Shown here piece by piece: positions 496-34,142 of a stretch of 64,000 nt of DNA. The DNA comes from Candidatus Rokuibacteriota bacterium. GTDB lineage: Bacteria; Methylomirabilota; Methylomirabilia; Rokubacteriales; CSP1-6. The stretch spans positions 4,346 to 68,345 of the forward strand of contig QHSO01000001.1 of NCBI GenBank assembly GCA_003220475.1, written 5' to 3'. The position numbers were made by a program, and so were the translations under genes. Every line of letters starts with the position of its first letter. The stretch's first letter is position 1. The notes below the pieces were generated by a model. The model saw only the letters and a program-made list of their open reading frames with translations, made no database searches and had not been told where the DNA came from.

Positions 496-1503
496 TCATG
501 TCGGGGGCCCCGAAATGGCCCCCAAATCCCCAACGCTCGGCAGCGCCCTGGCGGAGCCATGGCGCTCCTCGAAGACGGCCGACAGAAACTCGGCGGCACG
601 ATGCTCGGCCCAGGCGCGCGGCCGCCAGGGCGGTCCGTCCCAGAACCCCACGTGGCCGCCGTGCGCGGTGAACTCGGCCACGATGCTGGGCGAGAGCTCC
701 GAGGGGCTGGGCAGCGCGGCGGGCGGCACGAACGGATCGTCGAGTGCGCTGATCAGCAGCGTGGGCCGCCGCACGCGCGCGAGGTAGGGACGGCACGAGG
801 CGCGGCGCCAGTAATCGCGCTCGTCGGCGAAGCCGTGCAGCGGCGCGGTCACGGCGCGATCGTAGGCGGCGAACGTCCGCGCACGCATGACGGCCGCGAC
901 GTCCACGAACTCGGGAAACGCGCGGGCCTTGTCGCGAACCTTCTCCTTGAACGAGCGCATGAAGGACGCGGTGTACGTCAGCTTCGCGATGCCACGGTCG
1001 AGCACGCGCGTGCAGCGCTCGAGGTCGTACGGCGTCGAGATGCCGACGGCGGCCGCGAGCTGCATCGGCGCGGCATCGCCGTGCTCACCGAGCCACTTGA
1101 GGAGCACGTTGCCGCCGAGCGAGACGCCGACGGCCCCGATGCGCACCAGCGGATCGCGCTCGATGAGCAGCCGAACGACCAGATCGAGATCGTCGGTATC
1201 GCCCGAATGATAGAAGCGCGGCAACCGGTTGGGCTCGCCGCTGCACGATCGGAAGTTCAGCGCGACAGCGCCCCAGCCGGCCGTGCGCGCCAGGCGCAAG
1301 AGGCCGCGCACGTAGTGCGAGTGGCACGAGCCCTCGAGGCCGTGCAGCACCAGCAGCAGCGGCGCTCCGGGCGCCACCGGCCCGTCGTGCCAGTCGAGGT
1401 CGACGAAGTCACCGTCGGGCGTGACGACCCGCTCGCGCCGGGACGGCGGCGCGTCCCGGCGCGTGAACGGGCCCCACACCGTCTGCGCGTGGCGGTTGCG
1501 CAA
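496..1503 (-). CDS. alpha/beta hydrolase, YheT/abhydrolase-1 type
   Basis: C-terminal 335 aa of track ORF 496..2259. Has the HGLEGS and GVSLGGN nucleophile elbow, DDPF, and an N-terminus RNRHAQTVW similar to E. coli YheT NCHLQTM. The only in-frame start after the upstream gene stop (1524) is TTG at 1501-1503. Confidence 0.65.
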   Translation of the reverse strand: MRNRHAQTVWGPFTRRDAPPSRRERVVTPDGDFVDLDWHDGPVAPGAPLLLVLHGLEGSCHSHYVRGLLRLARTAGWGAVALNFRSCSGEPNRLPRFYHSGDTDDLDLVVRLLIERDPLVRIGAVGVSLGGNVLLKWLGEHGDAAPMQLAAAVGISTPYDLERCTRVLDRGIAKLTYTASFMRSFKEKVRDKARAFPEFVDVAAVMRARTFAAYDRAVTAPLHGFADERDYWRRASCRPYLARVRRPTLLISALDDPFVPPAALPSPSELSPSIVAEFTAHGGHVGFWDGPPWRPRAWAEHRAAEFLSAVFEERHGSARALPSVGDLGAISGPPT

Positions 1504-1523: not shown

Positions 1524-2057
1524 CTATTCCTGCCCGTTCAGCAGCAGCTTCACGATTGCCGGCACGATCTCGCGTGCGCGTCGGTCGAGCTCCGCATCGC
1601 TGAGATTGGCGATCGGATGCGGCATCGCCAGGAACTTGTAGGAGGTGAGCCCCCACTGCTCGGCCATCGCCCTGCCCGTCTTCTCGAACACGTCGGTCAC
1701 GATCGAGGCCGAGGGGATGCCGTGATGCTCCAGCAGAATTCCGTCGAGCACACTGCCCGACGAGCAGGACCCTCAGTCGCCGATCCCGGCGACCATGACG
1801 TCTGCGGATGTCTTGATCGCCGCGATGATCTCCTCGTGCGCCGGCACGCTGGCGTTGTGCTTGCGGTACATCGTCCATTCCGCGATGCCGTGCTCGGCCT
1901 TGAGGATCTGACCGATCCGCTCGAGCAGCTTGTCGGAGTTGAACTTCGTGTTCTCGATCAGCGCCACCCGCTTGCCCGCGAGCGAGCCCGGCCGCGGCGA
2001 GTACTCGATCGGCCGCGGCGACGCGGGCGTGGTGGGATCCAGGATCTCGATGCTCAT
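1524..2057 (-). CDS. UGSC-motif selenoprotein (Sec encoded by in-frame TGA at 1773-1775), function unknown
   Basis: Track ORFs 1773..2120 and 1524..1751 are in the same frame, separated only by TGA 1773-1775 plus 7 sense codons (GSCSSGS). Joined product reads ...VMVAGIGD-U-GSCSSGSVLDGILLEHHGIPS... and aligns along its length with the N-terminal domain of the 6653..8227 product. Start ATG 2055-2057 (M22 of track ORF) overlaps the partner gene stop 2054-2056. AGGAG sits 8 nt upstream. Confidence 0.75.
1743..1761 (-). promoter_or_regulatory. SECIS-like hairpin 12 nt downstream of UGA (GUCGGGCA-GUG-UGCUCGAC)
   Basis: mRNA reads UGA GGGUCCUGCUC then an 8-bp stem-loop starting GUCG and ending CGAC, with G-U in the apical loop. 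Same spacing and stem ends as the element at 7925..7943. Confidence 0.5.
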
Positions 2058-3034
2058 CGCTTGATCTCCTTCGTAATGGCTGCGGAGGACTTCGCGCTCG
2101 ACCAGCCCGGGATGAAGCACGAGAACGCGCCGGCGCGGCCGCCGGCGGCCACGACGAGGATGTCGTCGGGCGCGGCCACGAGCGGGCGCATCCTGCTCTC
2201 GTCACCCGCCTCCGGCGCGCCCGCCATGCGCTGCGTCCGCTTGAGGTGCGCGTGCGCATTCTGCGTGTGCTCCCAGACGAACTGCCGGATCCGCTTCTTG
2301 TCCCAACCGTCGGCGGCGATCGTCTTCATGTGCTCGCCCGCGAGCACGAGACAGTAGTGCGGCTGCCCCATCACGTTGCCGGAGATGCGCATGCTGTCCG
2401 CCAGCGTGATGAGGACACCCTCGGCCGTGCTCGAGAGCTGGTTGTAGAACTGGTGCGGGCCTTCCGCCGCCATCACGGTGACCGTCGACTGCTCGGGCCG
2501 AAAGCCGCGCTCGACGTGCAGCGGCGTCCACGGGCTCTCCGCCTCGTTCTCGGCGATCACGTACGAGAGCTTGCCGGGATGGCCGACGGTGCCGCGGTCG
2601 AGCAGGCCGGGCATCGAGCCGCACACGTTGCGCATGACCAGGCGCACCGCGCGCCCGATCGTGAGATTCGCGCGCCAGCCGGGACCGAAGAGGTTGTCGC
2701 CCGCGTTGATGTCGAGCTCACGCGCGATCGGTCCGTTGACGATCATCAGCACGGCCGCGCCGGCGGTCGACGTGCCCGGGCCGTGATAACTCCAGCCCTC
2801 GTCGCCGATCCCCTCGACTGCGGCCACCACGACCGGCATGTACTCCGGCTTGCAGCCCGCCATCACCGCGTTGATCGCGACTTTCTCGGCCGTGACCGTC
2901 ACGAACCGATCGCGGATATAGGCGAGCTTGGCATCCGGCGCGAGCCGGACCGCGTCCAGCATGGCGCGCACCGCCGACTCGGTGGGCGGGACGACCGGCA
3001 GTCCGTCGCTCCAGCCTCCCTGGTGCCTGCCCAA
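2054..3034 (-). CDS. conserved hypothetical protein, partner domain of the UGSC selenoprotein (DUF-like)
   Basis: 326 aa. About 55-60% identical to the C-terminal 325 aa of the 6653..8227 product (GWSDGLPVVPPTE, NGPIAxxLxxxxGxNxxGxGxRANxxIGRAxRLV, GHPGKxxYxxAENEAxSPWxPLHVERGF). Stop TGA overlaps the UGSC gene ATG (ATGA). Confidence 0.75.
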   Translation of the reverse strand: MGRHQGGWSDGLPVVPPTESAVRAMLDAVRLAPDAKLAYIRDRFVTVTAEKVAINAVMAGCKPEYMPVVVAAVEGIGDEGWSYHGPGTSTAGAAVLMIVNGPIARELDINAGDNLFGPGWRANLTIGRAVRLVMRNVCGSMPGLLDRGTVGHPGKLSYVIAENEAESPWTPLHVERGFRPEQSTVTVMAAEGPHQFYNQLSSTAEGVLITLADSMRISGNVMGQPHYCLVLAGEHMKTIAADGWDKKRIRQFVWEHTQNAHAHLKRTQRMAGAPEAGDESRMRPLVAAPDDILVVAAGGRAGAFSCFIPGWSSAKSSAAITKEIKR

Positions 3035-3160: not shown

Positions 3161-6100
3161 GTGCGGTGTGCCCGGTGCCAGCACGACAACGCGCCCGGGG
3201 CCAAATTCTGCATGGAGTGTGGCGCGCGCCTGGGCTCGATCGCCGACGCGCCCCGAACCGAGTCGCCTGAGGCCTACACCCCCGCGCACCTCGCCAGCAA
3301 GATCCTGAGCGCGCGCGAAACGCTGGCCGGGGAGCGCAAGCAGGTCACCGTGCTGTTCGCAGATCTCAAGGGCTCGCTCGAGCTTCTCGCCGACCGCGAT
3401 CCCGAGGACGCGCGCGCCCTGCTCGACGCGGTGCTGGAGCGGATGATGGAGGCGGTGCACCGGTACGAGGGCACGGTCAACCAGGTCATGGGCGACGGCA
3501 TCATGGCCCTCTTCGGCGCGCCGGTCGCCCGCGAGGACCACGCGGTGCGCGCGTGCTACGCGGCGCTGCGCATGCACCGCGCCATCGCCCACGACGCGGA
3601 CGACGTGCGTCGGCGGCTCGGCGTCGACGTGCAGATCCGCGTCGGCCTGAACTCGGGCGAGGTGGTCGTCCGCTCGATCGGCAGCGATCTCCGAATGGAC
3701 TACAGCGCCGTCGGCCAGACGACCCACCTCGCGGCGCGGATGGAGCAGCTCACGCGTCCCGGCACCACGCTGATCACCGCGGCCACGCACCGCCTCGCGG
3801 CGCGCTTCATCGACGCCGCGCCGCAGGGGCCGATGCCGGTGAAGGGCCTGCGCGATCCCGTCGAGGTGTGGGAGCTCAAGCGGGCGACGCCGGTCACGTC
3901 GAGCCTCGGCGCCGTCGCCGGACGTGCGCAGACGGCGATGCTCGGCCGCGCCGCGGAGATGGCGACGCTGGCCCGGCTGCTGGCGCGCGCCCGCGAGGGC
4001 CGCGGGCAGCTCGTCACGCTGGTGGGCGAGCCGGGCGTCGGCAAGTCGCGTCTCGTCTGGGAACTCTCGCGCGGGGCCGCTGCCGACGGCTGGCAGATGC
4101 ACGAGGCGGCGTGCGTCTCCTACGGCATGCTCACGCCCTATCTGCCCCTCCGAAATCTGCTGACGAGGTACTTCGACGTCGAGGACGGCGACGACGCGCG
4201 GCGCATCCGCGAAAAGGTGGCGACGCGGATGGTGGCGCTCGACACACGACTCGCCGGCGGCGTCTCGGCGATCCTGGCGCTCGGCAACGTCCCCAACGAC
4301 GACGCCGAGTGGGACGCGCTCGCGCCCACCATGCGACGCCAGCGGATCCTCAAGGCCGTGCGCGAGCTGCTGCTGGCCGAAAGCCGTCGCGCGCCGTTGC
4401 TCCTCGTGGTCGAGAGTCTGGAGTGGGCGGACTCGGAGACGCACGCGCTCGTCGAAGATCTCGCCGCAGGGCTCGCCGAGGCGCGCATGCTCGTGGTCGT
4501 GACGGCGCGGCCCGAGCGCCGGCGCGACTGGTCGAGCACCGGTGACACGACGGAGATCCGGCTCGATCCGCTGGGCGCGGCCAGCGCCGCGGCGCTGGCC
4601 GACGCGATCCTCGGGCCCGCCGACGAGCTGGCGGCGCTCAAGCGACGGCTCGTCGCGCACACCGCGGGCAACGCGTTTTTCATGGAGGAGATCGTGCAGG
4701 CACTCGTCGAGACGCACGCGCTCGCCGGTGAGCGCGGGCAGTATCGCCTCGGCAGACTCGTGGAGGGCCTGCAGATCCCCGATCGCGTGCAGGCCGTGCT
4801 GGCCGCGCGCATCGACCGACTGTCTGGCGAGAGCAAGGCGGTCTTGCAGGCCGGCGCGGCCATCGGCGTCGATGTGCCGGTGGCGCTGTTGCAGGCGGTG
4901 GCCAACGCCTCGTCCGAGGAGGTGCTGCACGCGCTCGCGGAGCTCGAGGCCGCCGACTTCGTGCGGCCGAGCGCGCTGGTGCCCGATCTCGCCTACTCGT
5001 TCAAGCACGCGATCACCCAGGAGGTCGCCTACGCCACGCTGCTGAAAGAGCAGCGCCGCGCGCTGCACGCGCGCATCGTCGCGGCGCTCGAGGCCAGCTA
5101 TCCCGGCGAGCGCCGCGCCGAGCACGTCGAGCGGCTCGCCTACCATGCGCTGCGGGCGGAGGCCTGGCCCACCGCCGTCGGCTATCTGCGCGACGCGGGC
5201 GAGCGCGCGGTGGCGCGCTCGGCCAATCGTGAGGCCGCCGCCTTCTACGAGGACGCGCTGCGCGCGCTGGCGCATCTGCCGGAGAGCCGCGACACGTTCG
5301 CGCTCGCCATCGATCTGCGCCTCGATCTGCGCGTGCCGTTGCTGCAGCTCGGCCGGCTCGACGATCTCCACCGGCTGTCGAAAGAAGCCGAGAGCATGGC
5401 GCAGCACGTCGGCGACGAGGAGCGGCTGGCGCGCGCGTACTCGTATCTCGTGAACTACCACTATCTGCTCGGCGAGCCGGCGCGCGCCGACGAATACGGT
5501 GCACGCTGCCTCGCGATCGCCGGGCGGCGTCGCGATCCCGAGCTGGCGATGCTCGCCCGACGCTACCTCGGCCACAGTCACCACGCGCAGGGCCGGCACC
5601 GCATGGCCATCGAGGTCCTCGACGACAATCTCAGTGCGCTGGTCGCGGAGACCGCGGGCAGCATGGCGGTGGCCCGCACGACGGCCTACGTGGCGTCGGC
5701 GACCTGGCTCGCGTGGGCGCTGGCCGATCTCGGCGAGTTCGAGCGGGCCGATGCGTACCTCGACCGGGCGCGGGCGCAGTCGGATCTCGCGCGGCACCCG
5801 TACAGCCAGGCGATCGCGTGGACGCTCACCGGCGCCGTCTGGTACACGCGCGGTCAGCTCGATCGCGCGATGCCGACGCTGGCGCGCGGCCTCGAGATCT
5901 GCCGAGACGCGAACCTCACCGTGTGGCAGCCGATTCCGACCACGCTGCTCGGCGCGTGCCTGCTCGCGCTCGATCGCAAGGACGACGGTCTGGCGCTGCT
6001 CCGCGATGGCGTCCGCCGCGCCGAGTCGCTCGGCGTCATGGCCTATCTCTCACGCTGGACGCTGCAGCTCGCCGAGGGCCTGCTGGTCACCGGCGACGTC

Positions 6101-6649
6101 GCCGGCGCGCGGGTCACCGCCGATCGCGCGATGGCACTGGCCCTGACGCATGGCGAGCGCGCGCACGAGGCGATGGCGTGGCGCGTGCTCGGCGACGTCG
6201 CGGTGCGGGAACGCGAACTGGAGGCAGCGCGCCAGGCGTACGAGCAGGCGCTGCTGCTGGGCGAAGAGCTGGGGCTGCGCCCGCAGGTCGCGCGCGCCCA
6301 CTTCGACCTCGGCCGACTGGAGCGCCGTCTCGGCCATCTCGACGACGCCGAGGATCACCTCGCGCGCGCGGTCGTGCTCTTCGCCGAGATGGGCATGCGC
6401 GGCTGGCTCGAGCGGTCGCAGCCGGAGCTCAAGGCGCTCGGTCATCTGGTGATCGTGGCGCGCTCGAACATGAACCTCTTCGACTATCTGACGGAAAAGT
6501 TCGCCGGCGACCCCGACGTCAGCGTGATCCTCGATCGGCGCCAGGACGCGCCCATGCGCACGGCCGCGATGGGAACCGCCGAGCGGCGCCATCACACGAC
6601 GGACCAGGCCCTGCGCACGCGCGGACTGGCCGTCGTCGTCCCCGAGTAA
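3161..6649 (+). CDS. adenylate/guanylate cyclase (CHD) - AAA/STAND ATPase - TPR signalling protein with N-terminal double zinc ribbon
   Basis: 1162 aa. N-terminus CARCQHDNAPGAKFCMECG zinc ribbon. Class III cyclase domain (VTVLFADLKGS...GDGIMALFGAP). Walker A GEPGVGKS. Long TPR-like C-terminal region. Confidence 0.85.
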   Translation: MRCARCQHDNAPGAKFCMECGARLGSIADAPRTESPEAYTPAHLASKILSARETLAGERKQVTVLFADLKGSLELLADRDPEDARALLDAVLERMMEAVHRYEGTVNQVMGDGIMALFGAPVAREDHAVRACYAALRMHRAIAHDADDVRRRLGVDVQIRVGLNSGEVVVRSIGSDLRMDYSAVGQTTHLAARMEQLTRPGTTLITAATHRLAARFIDAAPQGPMPVKGLRDPVEVWELKRATPVTSSLGAVAGRAQTAMLGRAAEMATLARLLARAREGRGQLVTLVGEPGVGKSRLVWELSRGAAADGWQMHEAACVSYGMLTPYLPLRNLLTRYFDVEDGDDARRIREKVATRMVALDTRLAGGVSAILALGNVPNDDAEWDALAPTMRRQRILKAVRELLLAESRRAPLLLVVESLEWADSETHALVEDLAAGLAEARMLVVVTARPERRRDWSSTGDTTEIRLDPLGAASAAALADAILGPADELAALKRRLVAHTAGNAFFMEEIVQALVETHALAGERGQYRLGRLVEGLQIPDRVQAVLAARIDRLSGESKAVLQAGAAIGVDVPVALLQAVANASSEEVLHALAELEAADFVRPSALVPDLAYSFKHAITQEVAYATLLKEQRRALHARIVAALEASYPGERRAEHVERLAYHALRAEAWPTAVGYLRDAGERAVARSANREAAAFYEDALRALAHLPESRDTFALAIDLRLDLRVPLLQLGRLDDLHRLSKEAESMAQHVGDEERLARAYSYLVNYHYLLGEPARADEYGARCLAIAGRRRDPELAMLARRYLGHSHHAQGRHRMAIEVLDDNLSALVAETAGSMAVARTTAYVASATWLAWALADLGEFERADAYLDRARAQSDLARHPYSQAIAWTLTGAVWYTRGQLDRAMPTLARGLEICRDANLTVWQPIPTTLLGACLLALDRKDDGLALLRDGVRRAESLGVMAYLSRWTLQLAEGLLVTGDVAGARVTADRAMALALTHGERAHEAMAWRVLGDVAVRERELEAARQAYEQALLLGEELGLRPQVARAHFDLGRLERRLGHLDDAEDHLARAVVLFAEMGMRGWLERSQPELKALGHLVIVARSNMNLFDYLTEKFAGDPDVSVILDRRQDAPMRTAAMGTAERRHHTTDQALRTRGLAVVVPE

Positions 6650-6652
6650 CGC

Positions 6653-8227
6653 TCAGGCCTCGATCCGCTCCGTCACCGAGCGCGTGGCGCCGAACGTCGG
6701 CACGATGGCCGAGTGCTTGCCCGGACCGCCCGCGACGATCACCATCACGTCCTCGGGCTTCGACGCGAACGGCAGCAGCGTGTCGGGGCCCGCGTTCTCG
6801 AACCGCTCGGGATGCGTGAGCTTGAAGCGCGCGATGTTGTCCGCCGAGAACTTCGCCATCGGCACGCGCGCGGCGTCCCAGAAGCGGCTCTGGAAGTCCT
6901 GCTTCGACCAGCCCGACGAGGCGAGCGTCTGCGCGTGCTCGGGGCCGAGGATCACGAGCGGATCGCCAGCCAGATAGATGTTGTTGCTGCCGGTGGTCGC
7001 CGCCGTGCCGGCGAGCGCGGCCATCAGCGTCTCGCCCGTCGTCGAGCCGTGGTCGTTGACGTTGTGGGGAGGCTCGGAGCCGCACACGGTCACCGTGCTG
7101 TCCTCGCGCGCGAAGCCGCGCTCCACGTGCAGCGGCTCCCACGGCGACTGCGCCTCGTTCTCGGCCAGGCAGTACGTGAACTTCCCCGGATGCCCGAGCG
7201 TCGCGCGGTCCTCTCGGCCCGGGCGCGCGCCGCCGACGTTCTGCAGCACCAGTCGCAGCGCGCGGCCGATGACCGCGTTGGCGCGATGGCCGTTGCCGAG
7301 CGCGTTCGGTCCGCCCGCCACGCCGAGCCGCGCCGCGATGGGACCGTTGACGATGACGAGCGGCGAGCACGGATGCGTCGTGCACTGGATCGCGTTGAGG
7401 TTGAACTGCGGCGTGGCCACGGCGCGCACGGCGGCGATGATCACCGGCAGGTGCTCGGGGCCCGCGCCCGCCAGCGCGGCGTTGACGGCGATCGCGTGCA
7501 GCGTCGCGCGACCGTCGAGCGGCATGAGCGTCGAGGCCAGTTCCTCGCCTGCGCGACGGCCGAGGATCTTCGCCACCCGCGCTTCGGTCGGCGGCAGCAC
7601 GGGCAGCCCGTCCGACCACTCCTGCTCCATCGCCCACAGCTGGAACGCGTCGAGATCCTCCGGCGCCTCCACGAGGGTCGGACGGGCCGCCGCCGTGGTC
7701 GCGGGCGGGGTGGGATCCGACGTCAGGCCGCGCAGAACCTCATCGAGGATCGCGTCGGCTTTCGCGCGCGCCGTGTCGGTGGGGATGCCGCCGAGCGGAT
7801 GCGGCACGAGCGCCACCGGCATGTGCGGCAGTCCATGTTTCGCGGACGTCGCCCTCGCGAGCGAGAGAAACGCGTCGGTGCCGAGCACGACGGACGGGAC
7901 GCCCCGCCCTTCCAGCTGCGCCGCGTCGTGGATACTCCACGACGTGCAGGACCCTCAGTCGGCGCTCCCGGTCAGCACGACGTCAGCACCCTTCGCGATG
8001 TCGTCGAGGATCTCGGCCGGCCGCGCCGCACTGGGCTTGCTCCAGCCGCGCACGCCCGCCGCGCCCGTGCGCGCGGCGAGCAGCTCGGCGACCCGATGCA
8101 GGAGCGCGCCGGCGTTCGGCTTGGAATTGTCGAGGACGCCGATGGTGAGACCGGCCAGGCTCGGCTTGCGCGGCGCGAGCCGCCCGATCTTCGCCTGGCC
8201 GCCTGAGAACGGGCTCCAGAGTTTCAT
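6653..8227 (-). CDS. fused UGSC-motif selenoprotein + partner domain (Sec encoded by in-frame TGA at 7955-7957)
   Basis: Track ORF 6653..7888 and the last 90 codons of ORF 7955..9592 share a frame, interrupted only by TGA 7955-7957. Product reads MKLWSPF...VVLTGSAD-U-GSCTSWS...EWSDGLPVLPPTE... About 524 aa. ATG 8225-8227 overlaps the MFS gene stop 8224-8226 (ATGA). Confidence 0.75.
7925..7943 (-). promoter_or_regulatory. SECIS-like hairpin 12 nt downstream of UGA (GUCGUGG-AGUAU-CCACGAC)
   Basis: mRNA reads UGA GGGUCCUGCAC followed by a perfect 7-bp stem with a 5-nt loop containing GU. The core GCAGGACCCTCAGTCG is identical to that at 1764-1779. Confidence 0.5.
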
Positions 8228-9399
8228 GGGCGTGGAGTATAGCGCCACGGAGCCGCGGCGGCGACGGTGGCGAGCACGACCGCAATCGCCGCGGCGAGGA
8301 ACGCCTCGCCGAACGCGGCGGGCAGTCCGACGATGTCGCGCCGCGCCGCGAACAGCCCGGCGAGGCCGAGCACTCCGGTGACGACGCCGAGCGTCCGCGC
8401 CAGGAACGCGAAGCCGCCCGCCATGCCCTGCTGCGCGCCGCCGAACGCGCCCATGATGAGCGCCATGTTGGGAACCTGAAACATGCCCAGACCGAATCCC
8501 GCCGCGAACAGCGCAACGGCGATCATGGGCATGCTCGTCGTCGCGTCCGCGCGGCTCAGCAGGAGCAGGCCGAGCGCCTCGAGCGCGAGCCCGCCGATCA
8601 TCGGGCCACGCGCGCCCAGGCGATCGGCGGCGACGCCGGCGACGGGCGCCGCCGCGGCCGTGCCGAGCGGCGTGAGCGTGAACAGCAGGCCCGCCGTAAG
8701 CGCGTCGAGCCCGCGCACGAGCACGAGATAGAACGGCGCGAGCAGCCAGACCGAGAAGATGGACGCATTCGCGAGGAACGCGAGGGCGCCCGGCGCGAGC
8801 ACGGCGCGACGCACGACGTCGGCGGCGGCCACGAGCCGTGTGGCGGCGCCGCGCGCCGCCGGCAGACCGGCGAGCGCCCAGCCGAACACGCCCAGCGCGA
8901 TCGGAACGCGGACATAGAAGGTAGAACGCCAGCCGAGGTGAGCCACGAGCAGCCCGGCGACGAGCGGCCCGACCGTGAAGCCGACGCCGATGCCCGCATT
9001 GAGGAAGCCGAGCGCGCGGCCCCGCGCCTGGGGCGGCGCGGCGAGCGTGACGATCCCCGGCGCCGTGCCGTAGACGAGGCCACCGCCGAGTCCTTGCAGC
9101 ACGCGCGCGCCCAGCAGCAGTCCAAACGTCGGCGCCAGCGCGCCGAGCGTGAGCGCCACGGCCGTGAGCAGCAGACCAACGCGGAACACGCGCGCGTGAC
9201 CCACACGGTCCGCGAGCGCGCCGCCCGAGAACGCGGTCAGCGCGTAGGTGAAGACGTAGCAGACGATCACCCAGCGCACGCGCTCCGGCGGCTCGGCGAA
9301 CGCCGCCGCCATGGCGGGAAACGCGACGTTGATGATCGAGTCGAGCGAGATGACGCCGGCGCCGGCCGCCGCGATCCAGCGGGTCACGGCTGGTATCAT
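8224..9399 (-). CDS. MFS transporter
   Basis: 391 aa with 12 predicted TM helices and typical MFS loop motifs (GALADRVGHAR, LQGLGGG). Its stop overlaps the start of the downstream selenoprotein gene. Confidence 0.85.
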   Translation of the reverse strand: MIPAVTRWIAAAGAGVISLDSIINVAFPAMAAAFAEPPERVRWVIVCYVFTYALTAFSGGALADRVGHARVFRVGLLLTAVALTLGALAPTFGLLLGARVLQGLGGGLVYGTAPGIVTLAAPPQARGRALGFLNAGIGVGFTVGPLVAGLLVAHLGWRSTFYVRVPIALGVFGWALAGLPAARGAATRLVAAADVVRRAVLAPGALAFLANASIFSVWLLAPFYLVLVRGLDALTAGLLFTLTPLGTAAAAPVAGVAADRLGARGPMIGGLALEALGLLLLSRADATTSMPMIAVALFAAGFGLGMFQVPNMALIMGAFGGAQQGMAGGFAFLARTLGVVTGVLGLAGLFAARRDIVGLPAAFGEAFLAAAIAVVLATVAAAAPWRYTPRP

Positions 9400-9407
9400 G
9401 GCACGCC

Positions 9408-9803
9408 ATGGAGCTGAAGCCCGGAGCCACCAACGAGATCACGTGGACGGTCACGCCAGACAAGACGGCCGACGCCATGGGCAATCGCGGCGTGAAGGTG
9501 TTCGCGACGCCGTGGCTGATCGGGATGCTCGAGGACGTGTGCGGCACGATGATCAAGCCCACGCTCCCGCCCGGCGCCACCACCGTCGGCACGATGGTGG
9601 AGATGCGTCACCTCGCGGCCACGCCGGTGGGCATGAGTGCGCGCGCGAAGGCCACGCTGCTCGAGACCGACGGTCGCCGCTTCCTGTTTTCCGTCGAGGC
9701 CTGGGACGCGAAGGACAAGATCGCCGAGGGACGGCACGAGCGCTTCGTCGTCCCGAATCTCGAGAAATTCCTCGAGCGCGTTATGAAGAAGGGCCAGGGC
9801 TGA
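9408..9803 (+). CDS. hotdog-fold thioesterase (FlK/thioesterase superfamily-like)
   Basis: 131 aa with GVKVFATPWLIGMLEDVC...VGTMVEMRHLAATPVG. Start lies 8 bp from the divergent MFS start. Confidence 0.7.
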   Translation: MELKPGATNEITWTVTPDKTADAMGNRGVKVFATPWLIGMLEDVCGTMIKPTLPPGATTVGTMVEMRHLAATPVGMSARAKATLLETDGRRFLFSVEAWDAKDKIAEGRHERFVVPNLEKFLERVMKKGQG

Positions 9804-19904: not shown

Positions 19905-21550
19905 GCCGCGGGCTCGCGCTCGACGTCCTCGACGTAGCGCACGAAGTGCGGATAGAGCTGGATGGGATGGTTGAGCGGCTCCGGCAACCGCACGCCGGGC
20001 GGCGCCACCACGAACGTGTGCAGCTCTTCCGGCGACGGTCCCGCGTGCGCGCCGGCTTCGGCGATGTACGACACGTGCCCGGAGGACGCATCGATGCCGT
20101 AGACGACGAGATCGCCGGCGCTGGGCATCGCCATGAGATCGGCGACGGCGGAGACGACCAGCGGCGCATCGGGGCGTGCCGCGAAGGGGCCGGGCTCGGC
20201 GAGGCTCAGACGGTAGCGTTTGCCGCGCCAGAAGCACACGGGACCGTCAGCACCACGCGTGAGGACATAGCCGACGCCCGGATGGCGCGAGAGATCCTCG
20301 GCCAGTCCGGGCCACCGCTCCTCGATCCGCTCGATGGACAGCGCCTCGGCGTGGTCGACGAAGTAGATGAACGCGTTCGGGCCGGCCGCGATGACGCGGA
20401 CGTTGTCGCGCTCGTGCGCCTCCTTCACCTCGCCGAGGATCCACGGAAAACCATCCTCGATGTAGTTGAAGAATCGCTGGAAGTACCCTGGCGCGCGGCC
20501 CATACGGAGGGCCTTGATGCCGCTGGCGAGGCGGTGGCGCCCGGCCGGACGCTCGGGACTGACGGGGCGGGCCCCGGCGGGTGTGAAGAAGTCCTCGAAG
20601 ATCACGCGCTCGAAGCGCCGCCCGCCGCTGAGCTGGCCGAAGGGCTTGGTCAGCGCCTGCCCGTGATCGGACAGGATATAAAGGTCGTACGCGTGCTCGG
20701 GCACGCGACGGCACACGCGCCAGATCTGCTTGATCGCGTCGTCGATGCGCCGCAGGCTGCGCAGCGCACGCGGATGCCGCGGCCCGTAGGCGTGCGAGAC
20801 GACGTCGTAGTCGAGATAGTTGACGTAGATCGACGGCACGCCGGCATAGACGTCACGCGCGACGGCGAGCGTGAAGAGCTCCCGCACCCAGACCGAGAGC
20901 CCGAGCTTGATGGCCAGCCACTTCCACCCGCGCGCCCACTCGCCCACCGGGTCGGCGAGCAGGCGCAGCACGGCGCGCGCGAGCTCGACGACGGTGATCA
21001 CCGTGCTCTTGAGCGCGACCCAGAGCAGCACGATGATGGCCGATAGCGCCGCGAGCAGGCCGCTGCCGCTCGGCCGCTTCATGATCGCGAACGTGAACAG
21101 GTTCTGCAGAGCGCCGCCGGTGAAAACGCAACCATAGCAGGCGCCGCCCTCGACGATGCCGCGACGACCGCTCGCCTGCGCGCGCTCCACGCGCGCGGCG
21201 TCGCCCGCGCGTGGGAAGTACACGTCCTCGCGCTGCCGCTTGTCGTGATAGTGGAAGCCGGGGATGTCCGGCCGCACGCCGTACATCGCGGCAAGCTGGA
21301 AGGAAGGCGTCGACGAAGGCAGACCGACGAACATCGGATGCACTCGCCAGCCGGCGCGCTCGATCACCCGGCGCAGGAACGGCATGCGCCTCTCCGCCAG
21401 CGCCTGCTCCAGCACGCCGCGCGAGAGTCCGTCGATCTGGACGACGAGCAGGCGGCGGCGTCCCGGGGTAGGCGCACGTCCGCGCCGGGCGCGCCGAACG
21501 AGGCGATCGACGAAACGCTGGAGGGCGAGCACCAGGTCGTCGAGAGGCAT
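19901..21550 (-). CDS. alkaline-phosphatase-superfamily type I phosphodiesterase / nucleotide pyrophosphatase family protein with internal TM segment
   Basis: LDYDVVSHAYGP and YILSDHGQ motifs. Central hydrophobic stretch. Confidence 0.65.
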   Translation of the reverse strand: MPLDDLVLALQRFVDRLVRRARRGRAPTPGRRRLLVVQIDGLSRGVLEQALAERRMPFLRRVIERAGWRVHPMFVGLPSSTPSFQLAAMYGVRPDIPGFHYHDKRQREDVYFPRAGDAARVERAQASGRRGIVEGGACYGCVFTGGALQNLFTFAIMKRPSGSGLLAALSAIIVLLWVALKSTVITVVELARAVLRLLADPVGEWARGWKWLAIKLGLSVWVRELFTLAVARDVYAGVPSIYVNYLDYDVVSHAYGPRHPRALRSLRRIDDAIKQIWRVCRRVPEHAYDLYILSDHGQALTKPFGQLSGGRRFERVIFEDFFTPAGARPVSPERPAGRHRLASGIKALRMGRAPGYFQRFFNYIEDGFPWILGEVKEAHERDNVRVIAAGPNAFIYFVDHAEALSIERIEERWPGLAEDLSRHPGVGYVLTRGADGPVCFWRGKRYRLSLAEPGPFAARPDAPLVVSAVADLMAMPSAGDLVVYGIDASSGHVSYIAEAGAHAGPSPEELHTFVVAPPGVRLPEPLNHPIQLYPHFVRYVEDVEREPAA

Positions 21551-21578
21551 CGGATTTCATTGTACTATCGCATCCGCG

Positions 21579-23702
21579 ATGGACCTCCACCCGAACGTCG
21601 TCGCCGCCGTGCGGCGGTTCGTCGAGGAGGCTGTGCGGCCCGCCGCGCCCGAGCTCGAGCACGCCGACACGTACCCGCACGCCCTGGTCGACCGGATGCG
21701 GGCCCTCGGCCTGTTCGGCGCGCTGGTGCCGCGCGAGTACGGCGGTCTCGGCCTCGACGTCACGACGTACGCCCGCGTGATCGAGGAGCTGTGCCGGGGC
21801 TGGATGTCCCTCGCCGGCGTCATCAACAGCCACACGATGGCCGCGCTGATCGTGCTGTATCACGGCACCGAGGCCCAGCGCCGCCGGCTGCTGCCGCGCT
21901 TCGCCACCGGCGAGGCGCGCGGCGGTCTGTGCCTCACCGAGCCGCACGCGGGCTCGGACGTGCAGGCGATTCGCACGCGGGCGATCCAGCGCGGCGAGAC
22001 CTACGTGATCACCGGCACGAAGATGTTCGTGACCAACGGTCGCGAGGGCAACACGTTCGCGCTGCTGGCCGTCACCGATCCCTTCGCCCAGCCGCGCCAC
22101 CGCGGCATGTCGTGCTTCATCATCGAGAAGGGCGCGCCCGGCCTCGCCGTTGTGAAGTCGATCGGCAAGCTCGGCTACAAGGGCGTCGACACCGCGGAGT
22201 TGGTTTTCGAGGACTTCCCCTGCTCGGCCGCGAATCTCGTCGGCGGCGTCGAGGGACGCGGCTTCGGCCAGGTCATGAGCGGTCTCGAGGCGGGGCGGAT
22301 CAACATCGCGGCACGCGCGGTCGGCGTCGCGCGCGCCGCGTACGAGGAAGCCGCCGCGTGCCGGGCCGGCGCGGCGCGCCTCGAGGACATGGCGGCCCGC
22401 GTGGACGCCGCGCGTCTGCTGACGTATTGGGCGGCGGGCATGAAGGATCGCGCCGAGCGCTGCGACCTCGAAGCCGGCATGGCGAAGCTCTTCGCCTCCG
22501 AAACGGCGCAGGAGGTCGCCCTCGACGCGGTCCGCCTCTGCGGAACCTCCACCGCGATGCTCATCGAGCGCTGCTATCGCGACGCGCCGCTGATGATCAT
22601 CGGCGAGGGCACCAACGAGATCCAGCGCACGATCATCGCGCGCCAGCTCGTCGAGCGGCACGGCGAGCGCGGCGGCGCGCTCGTCTCGCGCGAGGGCGAG
22701 CCCGAGGAGCGCCGGCAGATGCTGCTCGCGGTGCGCCAGGTCGTCGACAAGAGCGTGGCGCCGGTGGCCGCCGAGCACGATCGCGCCGGCGACATCCCGG
22801 ACGAGATCGTCGCCCAACTGGCCGATCTCGGCGTGTTCGCCGCGCTGGTCCCGGCCGCGCACGGCGGTCTCGGACTGGACCCCGCGACGTGGACGATGAT
22901 GATCGAGGAAGTCGCGCGCGTGTGGGCGGCGCCGGCGCTGCTGGCCGTCGAGCAGGGCGCCGTGGCGTATGGCCTCGGCCTCGCGGGTGGCGAGAGCGCA
23001 CGTCAGCTGAGCGCGCTCGCGCGCGCGGAGACGCTCGCCGCCGTCGTGCCGTTGCCCGAGGCGCTCGTCCGGTACGAGGACTCCGCGTGCGTGCTCGACG
23101 GCACCACGCCGCCCATCGCTCACGCTCGACGCGCCGGGCTCCTGGCCCTGGCGCTCGCGGACGGCAGCGCGTGGTGGCTCGTGCCCGCGTCGATGACCGG
23201 CGTCACGCTCGTGGCCGCCGCGGCCGATCTGGGGCTGCGCGGCGCCCCGCCGGCGGCGGTGGCCCTGCGCGGCGTGCGGCTGCCCGTCTCGCGTCCCTCG
23301 GTATCGGCGCCATCCCTGCTCGCCGTGATGGACCTCGGCGTCGGCGCAGTCGCGGTGGGCCTGGGCCAGGCCGCCTTCGAAGCGGCGCTGCGCTACTCGC
23401 AGCAGCGCACCACGTTCGGCAAGGCAATCTGTCAGCACCAGGCCGTGCAGCTCAAGCTCGCCGACATGGCGACGCGGCTCACCGCCGCGCGCCTGCTGGT
23501 CTGTGACACGGCCACGCTGGCGAGCGACGGTCACACGGCGGCGCGCCGCGCGCGGAGCTTCGCGGTCGACGCCGCGATCGGCGTCACGCTCGAGTCCATG
23601 CGCATCCACGGCGGCTATGGCTACACGACGGAGTTCGCCGTCGAGCGCTATTACCGCGACGCGGCCGCGCTGCTGAGCGCGCCGGCGCGCGCCACCGGCT
23701 GA
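21579..23702 (+). CDS. acyl-CoA dehydrogenase with tandem ACAD domains (second domain degenerate)
   Basis: M106 of track ORF 21264..23702. First 380 aa form a complete ACAD (GGLCLTEPHAGSD...IGEGTNEIQR). Residues 390-707 repeat the fold but are divergent. Confidence 0.8.
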   Translation: MDLHPNVVAAVRRFVEEAVRPAAPELEHADTYPHALVDRMRALGLFGALVPREYGGLGLDVTTYARVIEELCRGWMSLAGVINSHTMAALIVLYHGTEAQRRRLLPRFATGEARGGLCLTEPHAGSDVQAIRTRAIQRGETYVITGTKMFVTNGREGNTFALLAVTDPFAQPRHRGMSCFIIEKGAPGLAVVKSIGKLGYKGVDTAELVFEDFPCSAANLVGGVEGRGFGQVMSGLEAGRINIAARAVGVARAAYEEAAACRAGAARLEDMAARVDAARLLTYWAAGMKDRAERCDLEAGMAKLFASETAQEVALDAVRLCGTSTAMLIERCYRDAPLMIIGEGTNEIQRTIIARQLVERHGERGGALVSREGEPEERRQMLLAVRQVVDKSVAPVAAEHDRAGDIPDEIVAQLADLGVFAALVPAAHGGLGLDPATWTMMIEEVARVWAAPALLAVEQGAVAYGLGLAGGESARQLSALARAETLAAVVPLPEALVRYEDSACVLDGTTPPIAHARRAGLLALALADGSAWWLVPASMTGVTLVAAAADLGLRGAPPAAVALRGVRLPVSRPSVSAPSLLAVMDLGVGAVAVGLGQAAFEAALRYSQQRTTFGKAICQHQAVQLKLADMATRLTAARLLVCDTATLASDGHTAARRARSFAVDAAIGVTLESMRIHGGYGYTTEFAVERYYRDAAALLSAPARATG

Positions 23703-33503: not shown

Positions 33504-34142
33504 GTGATCGGTCCGTTCGCGAGCTCTCCGACGCCGCGGCGAGTCTACACCATCACGCTCACGCTCACGATCGCCCTCACGCTCCTCGGCCTCGGCTGCC
33601 ACGCGCCGGCGCCGGGGGCGGCCGACCGTCTCGTCGTCGAGACGCGGATGTCGAAGGGGCCGGCGACGGCGCCGGTGACGATCGTCGAGTTCTCGGATTA
33701 CCAGTGACCGTTCTGCCGACGCGTCCAGCGGTCGCTGGAGCAGATCCTCAGGGAGTACGATGGTCGGGTGCGTCTGGTCTACAAAGACTTCCCCCTGCCG
33801 TCCCACTCCCTGGCCATGCCCGCGCACGAGGCGGCGCGCTGCGCGGGCGATCAGGGCCGGTACTGGGCGTATCACGACGTGCTGTTCGAGCGTCAGCCGC
33901 GCTTCGAGCGTCAGGACCTCGTCGATTACGCGATCAACCTCAATCTCGACCGCGAGCGCTTCGAGCGCTGCCTGGATGGTCACCAGTACCGCGCCGCCGT
34001 CGAGGCGGATTTCGCGGAAGGCCGCGAGCTGGGTGTGCGCAGCACGCCGACGTTCCTCATCAACGGCAAGCCGCTCGTGGGCGCACAGCCCATCGAGAAT
34101 TTCCGCGCCGCCATCGACGAGGCGCTCCGGGTGCGCCGCTGA
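33504..34142 (+). CDS. DsbA-like thiol:disulfide oxidoreductase selenoprotein (U-P-F-C active site; Sec at TGA 33705-33707)
   Basis: Track ORFs 33393..33707 and 33768..34142 share a frame, separated by TGA plus 20 sense codons. Product reads ...VTIVEFSDYQ-U-PFCRRVQRSLEQILREYDGRVRLVYKDFPLPSHSLAMPAHEAARCAG..., i.e. the DsbA signature DYQCPFC with Sec at the first Cys. N-terminal signal or lipoprotein-like peptide. The start is uncertain (GTG 33486 or 33504) because the divergent DoxX gene occupies everything below 33485. Confidence 0.7.
33724..33739 (+). promoter_or_regulatory. candidate SECIS hairpin 16 nt downstream of UGA (UCCAGC-GGUC-GCUGGA)
   Basis: 6-bp stem with a GGUC loop, read directly from the sequence. 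Confidence 0.35.

What the first reader, a model, noticed from the sequence alone, without database searches (positions are those of the whole stretch)
1524..3034. Two-gene module: conserved unknown partner protein translationally coupled to a UGSC-motif selenoprotein (TGA = Sec at 1773-1775)
Two track ORFs on the minus strand (1773..2120 and 1524..1751) share a frame. They are separated by a single TGA and 7 sense codons. Read through, they give one 177-aa protein with the motif D-U-G-S-C. A SECIS-like hairpin follows the UGA at bacterial spacing. The gene has an AGGAG SD, and its ATG overlaps the stop of the 326-aa upstream gene (ATGA). I recall a 'UGSC-containing' selenoprotein family of unknown function from marine metagenome selenoproteome surveys, but I cannot confirm membership here without a search. 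The partner protein has no domain I can name.
Basis: partly seen in the sequence, partly recalled or inferred. Interest (0 to 1): 0.85.

Follow-up and report, generated by a model that had tools for sequence, protein, structure and literature searches.

The report
UGSC selenoprotein and its partner gene
This is a genuine selenocysteine-encoding gene of the known but functionally unexplained "UGSC" family, and in dozens of bacterial lineages it sits next to, or is fused to, one large uncharacterised protein family, which gives a concrete lead to what this selenoprotein does.

Summary
On the minus strand, ATG 2057 to TAG 1524 reads through one TGA (1775-1773). The 177-aa product scores above the curated cut-offs of NCBIfam NF041046 and Pfam PF24696 (UGSC family). 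Full-length homologues have Cys (GDCGSC) at the TGA position. A hairpin 14-33 nt after the UGA pairs in 67/67 distinct sequences from more than 60 species, shows compensatory changes and has an invariant GU loop. It decays in Cys forms.

The upstream partner belongs to a large family (5,226 clusters at 50% identity) with no Pfam or NCBIfam model and no solved structural relative. In 65 of 80 species-level genomes a UGSC gene lies within 1 kb on the same strand (61 Sec, 4 Cys).

New points:
- The window holds a second copy, a 524-aa UGSC-partner fusion selenoprotein (8227-6653).
- The stand-alone partner gene has lost its ribosome-binding site, ATG and 25 codons through an 82-bp deletion. All 12 near-identical contigs lack this deletion.
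- Other family members carry thioredoxin-fold CxxC domains in place of UGSC.
- Cys-type loci carry a thioredoxin-reductase-like gene.

Most likely reading: a dedicated Sec/Cys redox subunit serving an unknown reductase. The selenoprotein family is known; the substrate is not.

The parts
1524..2057 (-). UGSC-family selenoprotein gene, 177 codons including Sec; ATG 2057-2055, stop TAG 1526-1524
   Evidence: Read-through translation. NF041046 145 bits against cut-off 125, and PF24696 197 bits over residues 4-173.
1773..1775 (-). In-frame TGA read as selenocysteine (GD-U-GSC)
   Evidence: Cys aligns here in full-length homologues. TGA sits at this position in 61 of 65 linked genes from other species.
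1741..1763 (-). SECIS-type hairpin, nt +13 to +35 from the U of UGA; conserved core is +15..+22 paired with +26..+33, apical loop GUG
   Evidence: Fold. Alignment A7 and pair counts: core 5 bp paired in 67/67, compensatory changes at 3 pairs, G23 and U24 invariant. The hairpin is degraded in Cys forms.
2066..2071 (-). AAGGAG Shine-Dalgarno sequence of the UGSC gene, 8 nt before the ATG
   Evidence: Read from the sequence.
2054..3034 (-). Partner gene, 5'-truncated remnant (homology 2054-3022); the stop TGA overlaps the UGSC ATG
   Evidence: 100% identical to 345-aa P0001/P0002 except at the N-terminus. No Pfam or NCBIfam hit.
3018..3019 (.). Junction of the window-specific 82-bp deletion that removed AGGAGG, ATG and codons 1-25 of the partner gene
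   Evidence: Alignment with L001/L002. All of L083-L092 carry the intact 345-aa gene.
6653..8227 (-). Second copy: a 524-codon fusion selenoprotein. UGSC domain 8227-7709, linker, partner domain 7684-6656.
   Evidence: Translation. NF041046 126 bits and PF24696 164 bits. Partner domains are 37% identical, E 8e-68. HMM coordinates.
7955..7957 (-). In-frame TGA (Sec) of the fusion gene (SAD-U-GSCTSW)
   Evidence: Sequence. Database homologues all begin after this codon, 411-425 aa.
7924..7944 (-). SECIS-type hairpin of the fusion gene (CGUCGUGGA-GUA-UCCACGACG), in the same register as the first copy, with compensatory differences from it
8224..9438 (-). MFS transporter gene whose TGA stop overlaps the ATG of the fusion gene (ATGA); start codon not fixed
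   Evidence: PF07690 160 bits. Overlap read from the sequence.
496..1503 (-). Alpha/beta-hydrolase gene about 20 nt downstream of the UGSC gene. Same-strand neighbour in the close relatives (Rokubacteria) only.
   Evidence: PF00561. Same synteny in L002 and L083-L092. Not among the conserved neighbours in other phyla.

Best explanation
Shown:
- Gene 2057-1524 encodes a UGSC-family selenoprotein. Its UGA is decoded as selenocysteine with the help of a SECIS hairpin immediately downstream.
- Across many phyla this gene forms a conserved pair with the upstream partner family. The pair is often fused into one polypeptide, as in the second copy at 8227-6653.
- In an AlphaFold model of a Cys-type fusion relative (P0431, 45% identical to the window's fusion protein), the UGSC domain is a flavodoxin-like alpha/beta domain. 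The U-G-S-C motif lies between a beta-strand and the following helix, and the domain packs against the partner with high model confidence.

Inferred mechanism:
- UGSC is the dedicated redox subunit of a two-component, or fused, reductase.
- The partner, which has a fold with no solved relative, binds the substrate through its invariant Asp/Asn/Arg/Glu residues and its two conserved cysteines (Cys80 and Cys178 in P0002 numbering).
- The Sec-x-x-Cys centre either reduces the oxidised partner cysteine(s) or attacks the bound substrate directly, and ends as a selenenylsulfide.
- That centre is re-reduced by a thioredoxin-reductase-type flavoprotein or by the cell's thioredoxin system.

The substrate is unknown. 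Recurrent CoA-transferase, acyl-CoA and transporter neighbours hint at a small organic acid or CoA ester.

In this window the fused copy is probably the functional one, because the stand-alone partner gene has lost its translation start.
For: Identity:
- Curated-profile hits span the UGA.
- Cys aligns at U in homologues.
- TGA occupies the same codon in 61 of 65 linked genes.
- The hairpin covaries and has an invariant GU loop.
- The hairpin, and the AGU codon that supplies the GU, are lost in Cys forms.
- A third selenoprotein gene (DsbA-like, U-P-F-C) lies in the same window.

Pairing:
- 65 of 80 species-level loci have a same-strand UGSC within 1 kb. In 58 the order is partner then UGSC, with a median gap of about 75 nt.
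- Fusions occur in both orders.
- Paralogous modules within one genome each keep their own UGSC (window, L005, L053).
- Distance matrices of adjacent pairs correlate at r = 0.84, against a permutation maximum of 0.08.
- The fusion model has pLDDT 94.7 and pTM 0.93.

Redox role:
- The motif is UxxC or CxxC.
- In other family members the N-terminal UGSC domain is replaced by AhpC/TSA-Redoxin or CPTC thioredoxin-like domains.
- The partner keeps Cys80 and/or Cys178 in 236 of 237 sequences.
- A TrxB-like gene with a CATC motif lies in 4 of 4 bacterial Cys-type loci and in 2 Sec-type loci.
Against: - There is no experimental datum for any member, and the substrate is unknown.
- Neither partner cysteine is strictly required. 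The window's stand-alone copy has Val at 178 and the fused copy has Ala at 80.
- Some fusions have lost both cysteines of the UGSC motif (P0380, P0447, P0449).
- Fourteen of 80 partner loci show no UGSC within 6 kb. Three of these are cut contigs.
- TrxR-like and CoA-transferase neighbours occur in a minority of loci (6 and about 11 of 95 loci held).
- The mirror-tree correlation is confounded by species phylogeny.
- The Sec machinery was not found in the window.
Confidence: 0.6

Rival explanations
1. UGSC is the catalytic selenoprotein itself, in the manner of GrdB/PrdB or GrdA of the glycine and proline reductases. Sec attacks a substrate held by the partner, cleaves a C-N, C-S or C-X bond to form a selenoether, and Cys resolves it. 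The partner is the substrate-activating subunit rather than a thiol enzyme.
For: - Sec is strongly preferred over Cys: 61 to 4 here, and 255 Sec against 21 Cys forms in GOS (PMC2398784). This is typical of families in which Se is the nucleophile.
- Neither partner cysteine is indispensable.
- A UGSC profile aligns its CGSC / GIPSA / HPI segment with CPVC / GIPTV / PLG of GOS GrdB/PrdB-like reads (hhalign E 3e-4, probability 40%).
- From general knowledge, not checked here: grd operons carry trxB. TrxR-like genes occur near some UGSC modules.
Against: - The hhalign probability is below 50% and the GrdB/PrdB profile is thin (6 reads).
- UGSC does not hit PF07355 even at E <= 10.
- The partner shows no similarity to PrdA/GrdE-type proproteins in the profile or PDB searches run here.
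- Thioredoxin-fold CxxC domains can take UGSC's place in fusions. That fits a generic reductant better than a specialised nucleophile.
Confidence: 0.25
2. The TGA is a true stop. The locus encodes two small proteins (94 aa and 75 aa), or it is a decaying pseudogene.
For: - Public gene calls split the gene into 94-aa and 75-aa 'hypothetical proteins'.
- No tRNA-Sec, selA, selB or selD lies in the 64-kb window.
- The neighbouring partner gene carries a disabling deletion.
Against: - One Pfam or NCBIfam domain spans both halves.
- Cys-containing homologues are single 177-190-aa proteins.
- The TGA is kept at exactly this codon in 61 genes from many phyla, with a covarying hairpin behind it.
- Only 7 codons separate the TGA from the GTG of the second ORF, and no SD motif was noted there.
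- The split gene calls are what gene callers produce at any Sec codon.
Confidence: 0.03
3. The pair handles a metal, a metalloid, or selenium or sulfur itself (binding, trafficking or detoxification) through the U/CxxC motif, rather than acting as a reductase for an organic substrate.
For: - UxxC/CxxC motifs also occur in Mer- and Cu-ATPase-type selenoproteins listed beside UGSC in the reviews.
- An MFS transporter gene overlaps the start of the fusion gene.
- Weak sequence matches to the metal-binding domains of the PacS copper-transporting ATPase (E 0.7-1.7).
Against: - Those PDB matches are not significant.
- No metal-resistance genes recur next to the module.
- The recurrent neighbours are CoA-transferase III, SDR, flavin-dependent oxidoreductases and TrxR-like genes.
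- The partner's invariant residues are Asp, Asn, Arg and Glu, not a metal-binding Cys/His cluster.
Confidence: 0.07

Closest known systems
UGSC family (seleno)protein: NCBIfam NF041046, Pfam PF24696; the 'UGSC-containing protein' of Zhang & Gladyshev
   Same: - Scores above both curated cut-offs.
- Has the same U/C-G-S-C motif at the same profile position.
- The Sec form predominates.
- A fusion to an unnamed conserved domain ('Unknown_1') was already noted in 2008 (PMC2398784).
   Different: - The 2008 paper suggested a thioredoxin-like fold. The model made here is flavodoxin-like.
- Systematic operon linkage to one partner family, replacement of UGSC by thioredoxin-fold domains, and TrxR-like neighbours were not mentioned in the UGSC passages I read.
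- I could not confirm that 'Unknown_1' is this partner, because its figure is an image.
Glycine/sarcosine/betaine and D-proline reductase selenoproteins (GrdB/PrdB, PF07355; GrdA)
   Same: - A Sec-x-x-Cys motif directly after a hydrophobic beta-strand, followed by a helix and a G-I-P-[ST]-[VA] strand.
- The Sec form is nearly obligatory.
- The selenoprotein works with a second, substrate-specific protein.
- The thioredoxin system serves as reductant. For Grd/Prd this is established knowledge. Here it is suggested by TrxR-like neighbours.
   Different: - No significant profile hit: PF07355 is not matched and hhalign probability is only 40%.
- The partner is unrelated in sequence to GrdE/PrdA or GrdC/D.
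- The host lineages found here (soil Rokubacteria, Burkholderiales, marine Dehalococcoidia/SAR202) differ from the amino-acid-fermenting anaerobes that, to my knowledge, carry Grd/Prd.
Thiol-dependent reductases with a dedicated redoxin (Msr-Trx fusions, peroxiredoxin-redoxin pairs, ArsC-Grx/Trx) and the TrxR-Trx relay
   Same: - A catalytic protein with one or two conserved cysteines, paired or fused with a CxxC/UxxC domain.
- Alternative redoxin domains occur in different lineages.
- An NAD(P)H flavoprotein disulfide reductase gene lies nearby.
   Different: - The redoxin here has a flavodoxin-like fold, not a thioredoxin fold.
- The substrate is unknown.

Membership tests
UGSC family (NF041046 / PF24696) | Whole-protein score above the curated cut-off of the family profile | tested here: met
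   Stand-alone gene: NF041046 145 bits (cut-off 125) and PF24696 197.4 bits (cut-off 25). Fusion gene: 126.1 and 163.7 bits.
UGSC family (NF041046 / PF24696) | U/C-G-S-C motif at the conserved position, with Cys in non-Sec homologues | tested here: met
   The window has GD-U-GSC and AD-U-GSC. Ten full-length homologues have GDCGSC in the same column. The same holds in alignment A8.
Bacterial selenoprotein gene (SelB/SECIS-dependent UGA recoding) | In-frame UGA with coding conservation on both sides | tested here: met
   A single Pfam stretch covers residues 4-173 across the UGA. TGA is retained in 61 linked genes of other species.
Bacterial selenoprotein gene (SelB/SECIS-dependent UGA recoding) | Stem-loop starting about 11-15 nt after the UGA, with a conserved G/U in the apical loop | tested here: met
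   The hairpin pairs columns 15-22 with 26-33. The core pairs form in 67/67 sequences, with compensatory changes at 18-30, 19-29 and 21-27, and G23/U24 are invariant. It is weakened in 3 of 5 Cys forms. No Rfam family matched.
Bacterial selenoprotein gene (SelB/SECIS-dependent UGA recoding) | selA, selB, selD and tRNA-Sec present in the genome | not testable with these tools
   There is no tRNA in the window, and no Sel-type families among the 30 window ORFs scanned. The rest of the genome is not available. Indirect support comes from a third Sec gene (DsbA-like) in the window.
Thioredoxin-fold oxidoreductase (as proposed for UGSC in 2008) | Thioredoxin fold carrying the CxxC/UxxC motif | tested here: not met
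GrdB/PrdB selenoprotein B (PF07355) | Significant match to the family profile | tested here: not met
   No PF07355 hit for UGSC or the partner at E <= 10. Only a weak profile-profile match to the Sec-loop segment of GOS GrdB/PrdB-like reads (probability 39.6%, E 3e-4).
Partner family (unnamed; possibly 'Unknown_1' of PMC2398784) | Full-length homology, including the DGLPVVPPT, NAVMAGC, RANxTIGR and AENE motifs | tested here: met
   The window ORF matches the family HMM over positions 26-350 (E 1e-136) and the fusion over 7-349. The invariant columns are listed. The first 25 residues are missing from the stand-alone copy.

The most novel reading that the evidence does not exclude
UGSC plus its partner is a previously unrecognised, widespread selenium-dependent two-component enzyme, found in at least 596 species-level genomes across bacteria and at least one haloarchaeon. 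Its catalytic subunit has a fold with no solved relative. Electrons flow from NAD(P)H through a TrxR-type flavoprotein to the Sec-x-x-Cys centre of a flavodoxin-like subunit, and then to the substrate on the partner. The chemistry would be comparable to glycine or proline reductase but would occur in aerobic soil and ocean bacteria, possibly on organic-acid or CoA-ester substrates.
Probability: 0.35. Interest if true: 0.75.

Novelty: new member of a known kind. Interest (0 to 1): 0.5.

Why it matters
UGSC is one of the most abundant selenoprotein families in ocean and freshwater metagenomes (255 Sec sequences in GOS, PMC2398784). A 2026 review still lists it without a function (PMC13188914).

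This analysis shows four things that turn an orphan selenoprotein into a testable two-protein system:
- UGSC is almost always encoded beside, or fused to, one large unnamed family.
- That family also fuses to ordinary thioredoxin-fold domains.
- Cys-type versions exist in cultured Burkholderiales (Advenella, Paraburkholderia, Candidimonas), next to a TrxB-like gene.
- Those culturable strains give tractable organisms in which to find the substrate.

It also flags that public records split these genes at the Sec codon and label the pieces hypothetical.

Tried and rejected
- Whole-segment folding z-scores for the SECIS were uninformative in 70% G+C DNA. I replaced them with covariation analysis.
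- Rfam at gathering thresholds found nothing in the window.
- PDB sequence searches gave nothing for the partner. For UGSC they gave only a match to the Ika8/Ika4 entries, over a 47-residue stretch, which I judged spurious.
- The AFDB fold library was unavailable.
I modelled a 45%-identical Cys-type fusion (P0431) instead.
- Model coordinates could not be read, so no Sec-to-Cys distances were obtained.
- Fig. S1A of PMC2398784 ('Unknown_1') is an image, and the sequence dataset is truncated. Identity of Unknown_1 with this partner therefore stays unproven.
- A search for a third universally conserved neighbour failed. The most frequent were SDR (20 loci), LLM flavin oxidoreductase (13) and an NHL propeller (13), mostly within Dehalococcoidia.
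- Reading TGA as a general sense codon was rejected, because many genes here, including the partner and the MFS gene, end in TGA.
Full report
**1. What is in the sequence**

On the minus strand, ATG 2057-2055 opens a frame that runs to TAG 1526-1524 and is interrupted only by TGA 1775-1773.
- The read-through product is 177 residues with ...VMVAGIGD-U-GSCSSGSVLDG...
- AAGGAG (2071-2066) precedes the ATG by 8 nt.
- The ATG overlaps the TGA stop of the upstream ORF (ATGA).

**2. Family membership**

I replaced U by C for the profile searches.
- The protein scores 145 bits against NCBIfam NF041046, 'UGSC family (seleno)protein' (curated cut-off 125).
- It scores 197 bits against Pfam PF24696, in one stretch over residues 4-173, that is, across the UGA.
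- A database search found 111 relatives. The full-length ones (177-190 aa) include proteins that NCBI names 'UGSC family (seleno)protein' in Paraburkholderia sediminicola, Advenella kashmirensis and Janthinobacterium lividum. They carry GDCGSC with Cys in the column of the window's U.

The family has been in the literature since 2007-2008 as a selenoprotein of unknown function and one of the commonest in ocean metagenomes, with 255 Sec and 21 Cys forms (PMC1976440; PMC2398784). Reviews from 2022 and 2026 still list it as uncharacterised.

**3. SECIS**

A hairpin follows the UGA in both copies in the window. Whole-segment folding z-scores are not significant in this 70% G+C DNA, so I used comparative evidence.
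- From 80 related genomic loci I extracted the 63 nt starting at the UGA of every linked UGSC gene.
- I aligned 68 of these segments without gaps (A7).
- For the helix pairing columns 15-22 with 26-33, the five core pairs form in 67 of 67 distinct sequences.
- Three core pairs show compensatory changes: G-C to C-G, U-A to G-U or A-U, and C-G to G-C.
- G23 and U24 of the apical loop are invariant.
- The covariation score is 0.197 against 0.057 in shuffles (0 of 500). Slid registers score far lower.
- The RNA constraint is visible in codon choice. The Ser or Cys codon that supplies the loop GU is always AGU or UGU in Sec forms.
- In five Cys-type genes that codon is UCG, ACC or UGC. The hairpin drops to 2-5 of 8 pairs in three of them, with local MFE of -4 to -6 against a mean of -11.7 kcal/mol.

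The position and the GU loop match what I know of bacterial SECIS elements. That comparison rests on general knowledge, and no Rfam family matched.

**4. Sec use by the organism**

The window has no tRNA gene. None of the 30 ORFs scanned is selA, selB or selD, so that test remains open.

The window does hold two further Sec genes.
- One is the fusion described in section 5.
- The other is a DsbA-like lipoprotein gene (33504-34142, + strand) with TGA 33705-33707 in a U-P-F-C motif.
- Its read-through product hits Thioredoxin_4 (127 bits) and DSBA (90 bits) across the UGA, and a hairpin with a GGUC loop follows.

**5. A second, fused copy**

About 5 kb away on the same strand, ATG 8227-8225 opens a frame with TGA 7957-7955 (…TGSAD-U-GSCTSW…). 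It continues to 6653 and gives a 524-residue protein.
- Its N-terminal 170 residues are a UGSC domain (NF041046 126 bits, PF24696 164 bits).
- Its C-terminal 340 residues are 37% identical to the stand-alone partner (E 8e-68).
- Database relatives are all 411-425 aa, which means they were called from just after the UGA.
- Its ATG overlaps the stop of an MFS transporter gene.
- Its SECIS hairpin differs from that of copy 1 by paired substitutions.

**6. The partner**

The partner has no Pfam or NCBIfam match even at E <= 10 and no PDB sequence relative.
- An exhaustive search found 5,226 cluster representatives at 50% identity with E <= 1e-3, and 1,229 with E <= 1e-30.
- Sources name them only 'hypothetical protein', mostly from Rokubacteria/Methylomirabilota for the closest ones. 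This identifies the window's organism.
- Lengths fall into four classes: about 345 aa (stand-alone), 410-470 aa (preceded by the post-UGA half of UGSC), 530-560 aa (full fusions) and about 715 aa.
- Pfam confirms UGSC-partner fusions (P0371, P0380, P0399, P0422) and a partner-UGSC fusion in the opposite order (P0357).
- It also shows AhpC/TSA-Redoxin-partner (P0433) and CPTC thioredoxin-like-partner fusions (P0435, P0445, P0492).
- An AlphaFold model built from 66 sequences is very confident (pLDDT 95.5, pTM 0.93).
- Conserved features are DGLPVVPPT, NAVMAGC, RANxTIGRA, N155, AENE and W188.
- Two cysteines are conserved. Both are present in 201 of 237 sequences, Cys80 only in 26, Cys178 only in 9, and neither in 1.

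**7. Linkage**

The lineages include Methylomirabilota, Burkholderiales, Dehalococcoidia/SAR202, Poribacteria, Binatia, Acidobacteriota, Actinomycetota, Alphaproteobacteria, Entotheonella and the haloarchaeon Natrialba asiatica.
- In the 80 loci fetched, my HMM scan finds a same-strand UGSC gene within 1 kb in 65.
- The order is partner then UGSC in 58 and UGSC then partner in 7.
- Sixty-one are TGA forms and 4 are Cys forms.
- Of the 14 loci with no UGSC hit, 3 are cut contigs, 6 are a shorter Poribacteria variant and 5 are Dehalococcoidia.
- Genomes with several modules keep one UGSC per partner (window, L005, L053).
- The ...TSW... UGSC subtype goes with the upstream or fused arrangement in 8 of 10 cases.
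- Distance matrices of 70 adjacent pairs correlate at r = 0.84, against a permutation maximum of 0.08. Species phylogeny contributes to this value.
- No third gene is universally conserved.

**8. Fold and electron donor**

A model of a Cys-type fusion (P0431, 45% identical to the window's fusion) has pLDDT 94.7 and pTM 0.93, which implies a defined packing of the two domains.
- The UGSC domain is a beta-alpha-beta sandwich, with the motif between strand 86-90 and helix 95-110.
- Its structural neighbours are flavodoxins, azoreductases, B12-binding domains, CheY-like domains and Mmp7/McrC.
- No thioredoxin-fold protein appears among the listed hits, contrary to the 2008 suggestion.

In cultured Burkholderiales the Cys-type pair (with overlapping genes) is followed by a small CxxC protein, and a TrxB-like gene with the CATC motif lies beside it (L093, L094).
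- TrxB-like genes also occur in L040 and L046 (Cys types), L072 (Sec type, directly downstream) and L061.
- CoA-transferase III genes occur in about 11 loci, four of them directly downstream of UGSC.

**9. Mechanism**

The best-supported reading is a dedicated Sec/Cys redox subunit serving a reductase of unknown substrate, recharged by a TrxR-type system.
- Shown: the identity of the selenoprotein, the SECIS, the linkage, the fusions and the alternative redoxin domains.
- Inferred: the direction of electron flow, the role of the partner cysteines and the substrate class.

The main rival is that Sec is itself the catalytic nucleophile, as in GrdB/PrdB.
- The strong Sec preference favours this rival.
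- So does a weak profile match of the Sec-loop segment to GOS GrdB/PrdB-like reads (hhalign probability 40%, E 3e-4).
- That match is a lead, not a demonstration of homology.

**10. The deletion**

Relative to 12 contigs that are 98.8-99.8% identical, the window alone lacks 82 bp at 3018/3019.
- The missing stretch carries AGGAGG, the ATG and codons 1-25 of the partner. This includes the first helix of the model, residues 15-24.
- The remaining ORF has only a TTG, with no Shine-Dalgarno motif that I could see upstream.
- This is either a real strain variant, with the stand-alone module decaying beside an intact fused paralogue, or an assembly error. Read mapping would decide.

**11. Verdict**

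The finding is real and correctly interpreted. The gene is a new member of a known selenoprotein family.

The added value has two parts. One is the generality of the partner linkage. The other is the clues to an electron-transfer chain, which make the function of an abundant orphan selenoprotein testable.

Noticed in passing
window 33504-34142 (+), TGA at 33705-33707: A third selenoprotein gene: a DsbA-like lipoprotein (signal peptide ending LLGLGC) with a U-P-F-C redox motif. The read-through product hits Thioredoxin_4 (127 bits) and DSBA (90 bits) across the UGA. A hairpin with a GGUC loop follows the UGA.
   Followed up: partly
window 3018/3019 (minus-strand partner gene start): An 82-bp deletion unique to this window removes the SD, the ATG and 25 codons of the partner gene. 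All 12 near-identical public contigs are intact. It is either a real variant or an assembly error.
   Followed up: yes
window 479: A single-base insertion relative to all related contigs that cover this position, in the intergenic spacer between the alpha/beta-hydrolase gene and the next (TPR) gene.
   Followed up: partly
window 3161-6649 (+): A 1,162-aa zinc-ribbon / adenylate-guanylate cyclase / AAA_16 / TPR regulator lies between the two UGSC modules on the opposite strand. The same arrangement is present in related contigs (L001, L086-L091). Any regulatory link to the modules is untested.
   Followed up: no
L093 4569-4826 and L094 4552-4827: A small 85-91-aa protein with a C-E-D-C-L-V-P-K motif and no Pfam family overlaps the end of the Cys-type UGSC gene in Advenella and Paraburkholderia. 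It is not found in the other loci.
   Followed up: partly
P0380, P0447, P0449 (fusion relatives): Some UGSC-partner fusions have lost both cysteines of the UGSC motif (EIGGS, DIGAA, WSGVY) while the partner domain keeps Cys80 and Cys178. The UGSC domain may be only structural there.
   Followed up: no
P0354, P0364, P0370, P0374, P0412, P0426 (about 710-740 aa): Family members of double length match the partner profile in two or more stretches and hit no Pfam family. They look like tandem duplications of the partner domain.
   Followed up: no
window 21252-23702 (+): One stop-free 816-codon frame holds two complete acyl-CoA dehydrogenase units (each Pfam domain matched twice). These are either two adjacent same-frame genes or a fusion.
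   Followed up: no
L007 1348-1410 and L080 190-252: Two divergent UGSC-like genes next to divergent partner copies have atypical motifs after the TGA (U-G-A-C-A-T and U-G-S-C-T-P) and different hairpins. I left them out of the SECIS alignment.
   Followed up: no
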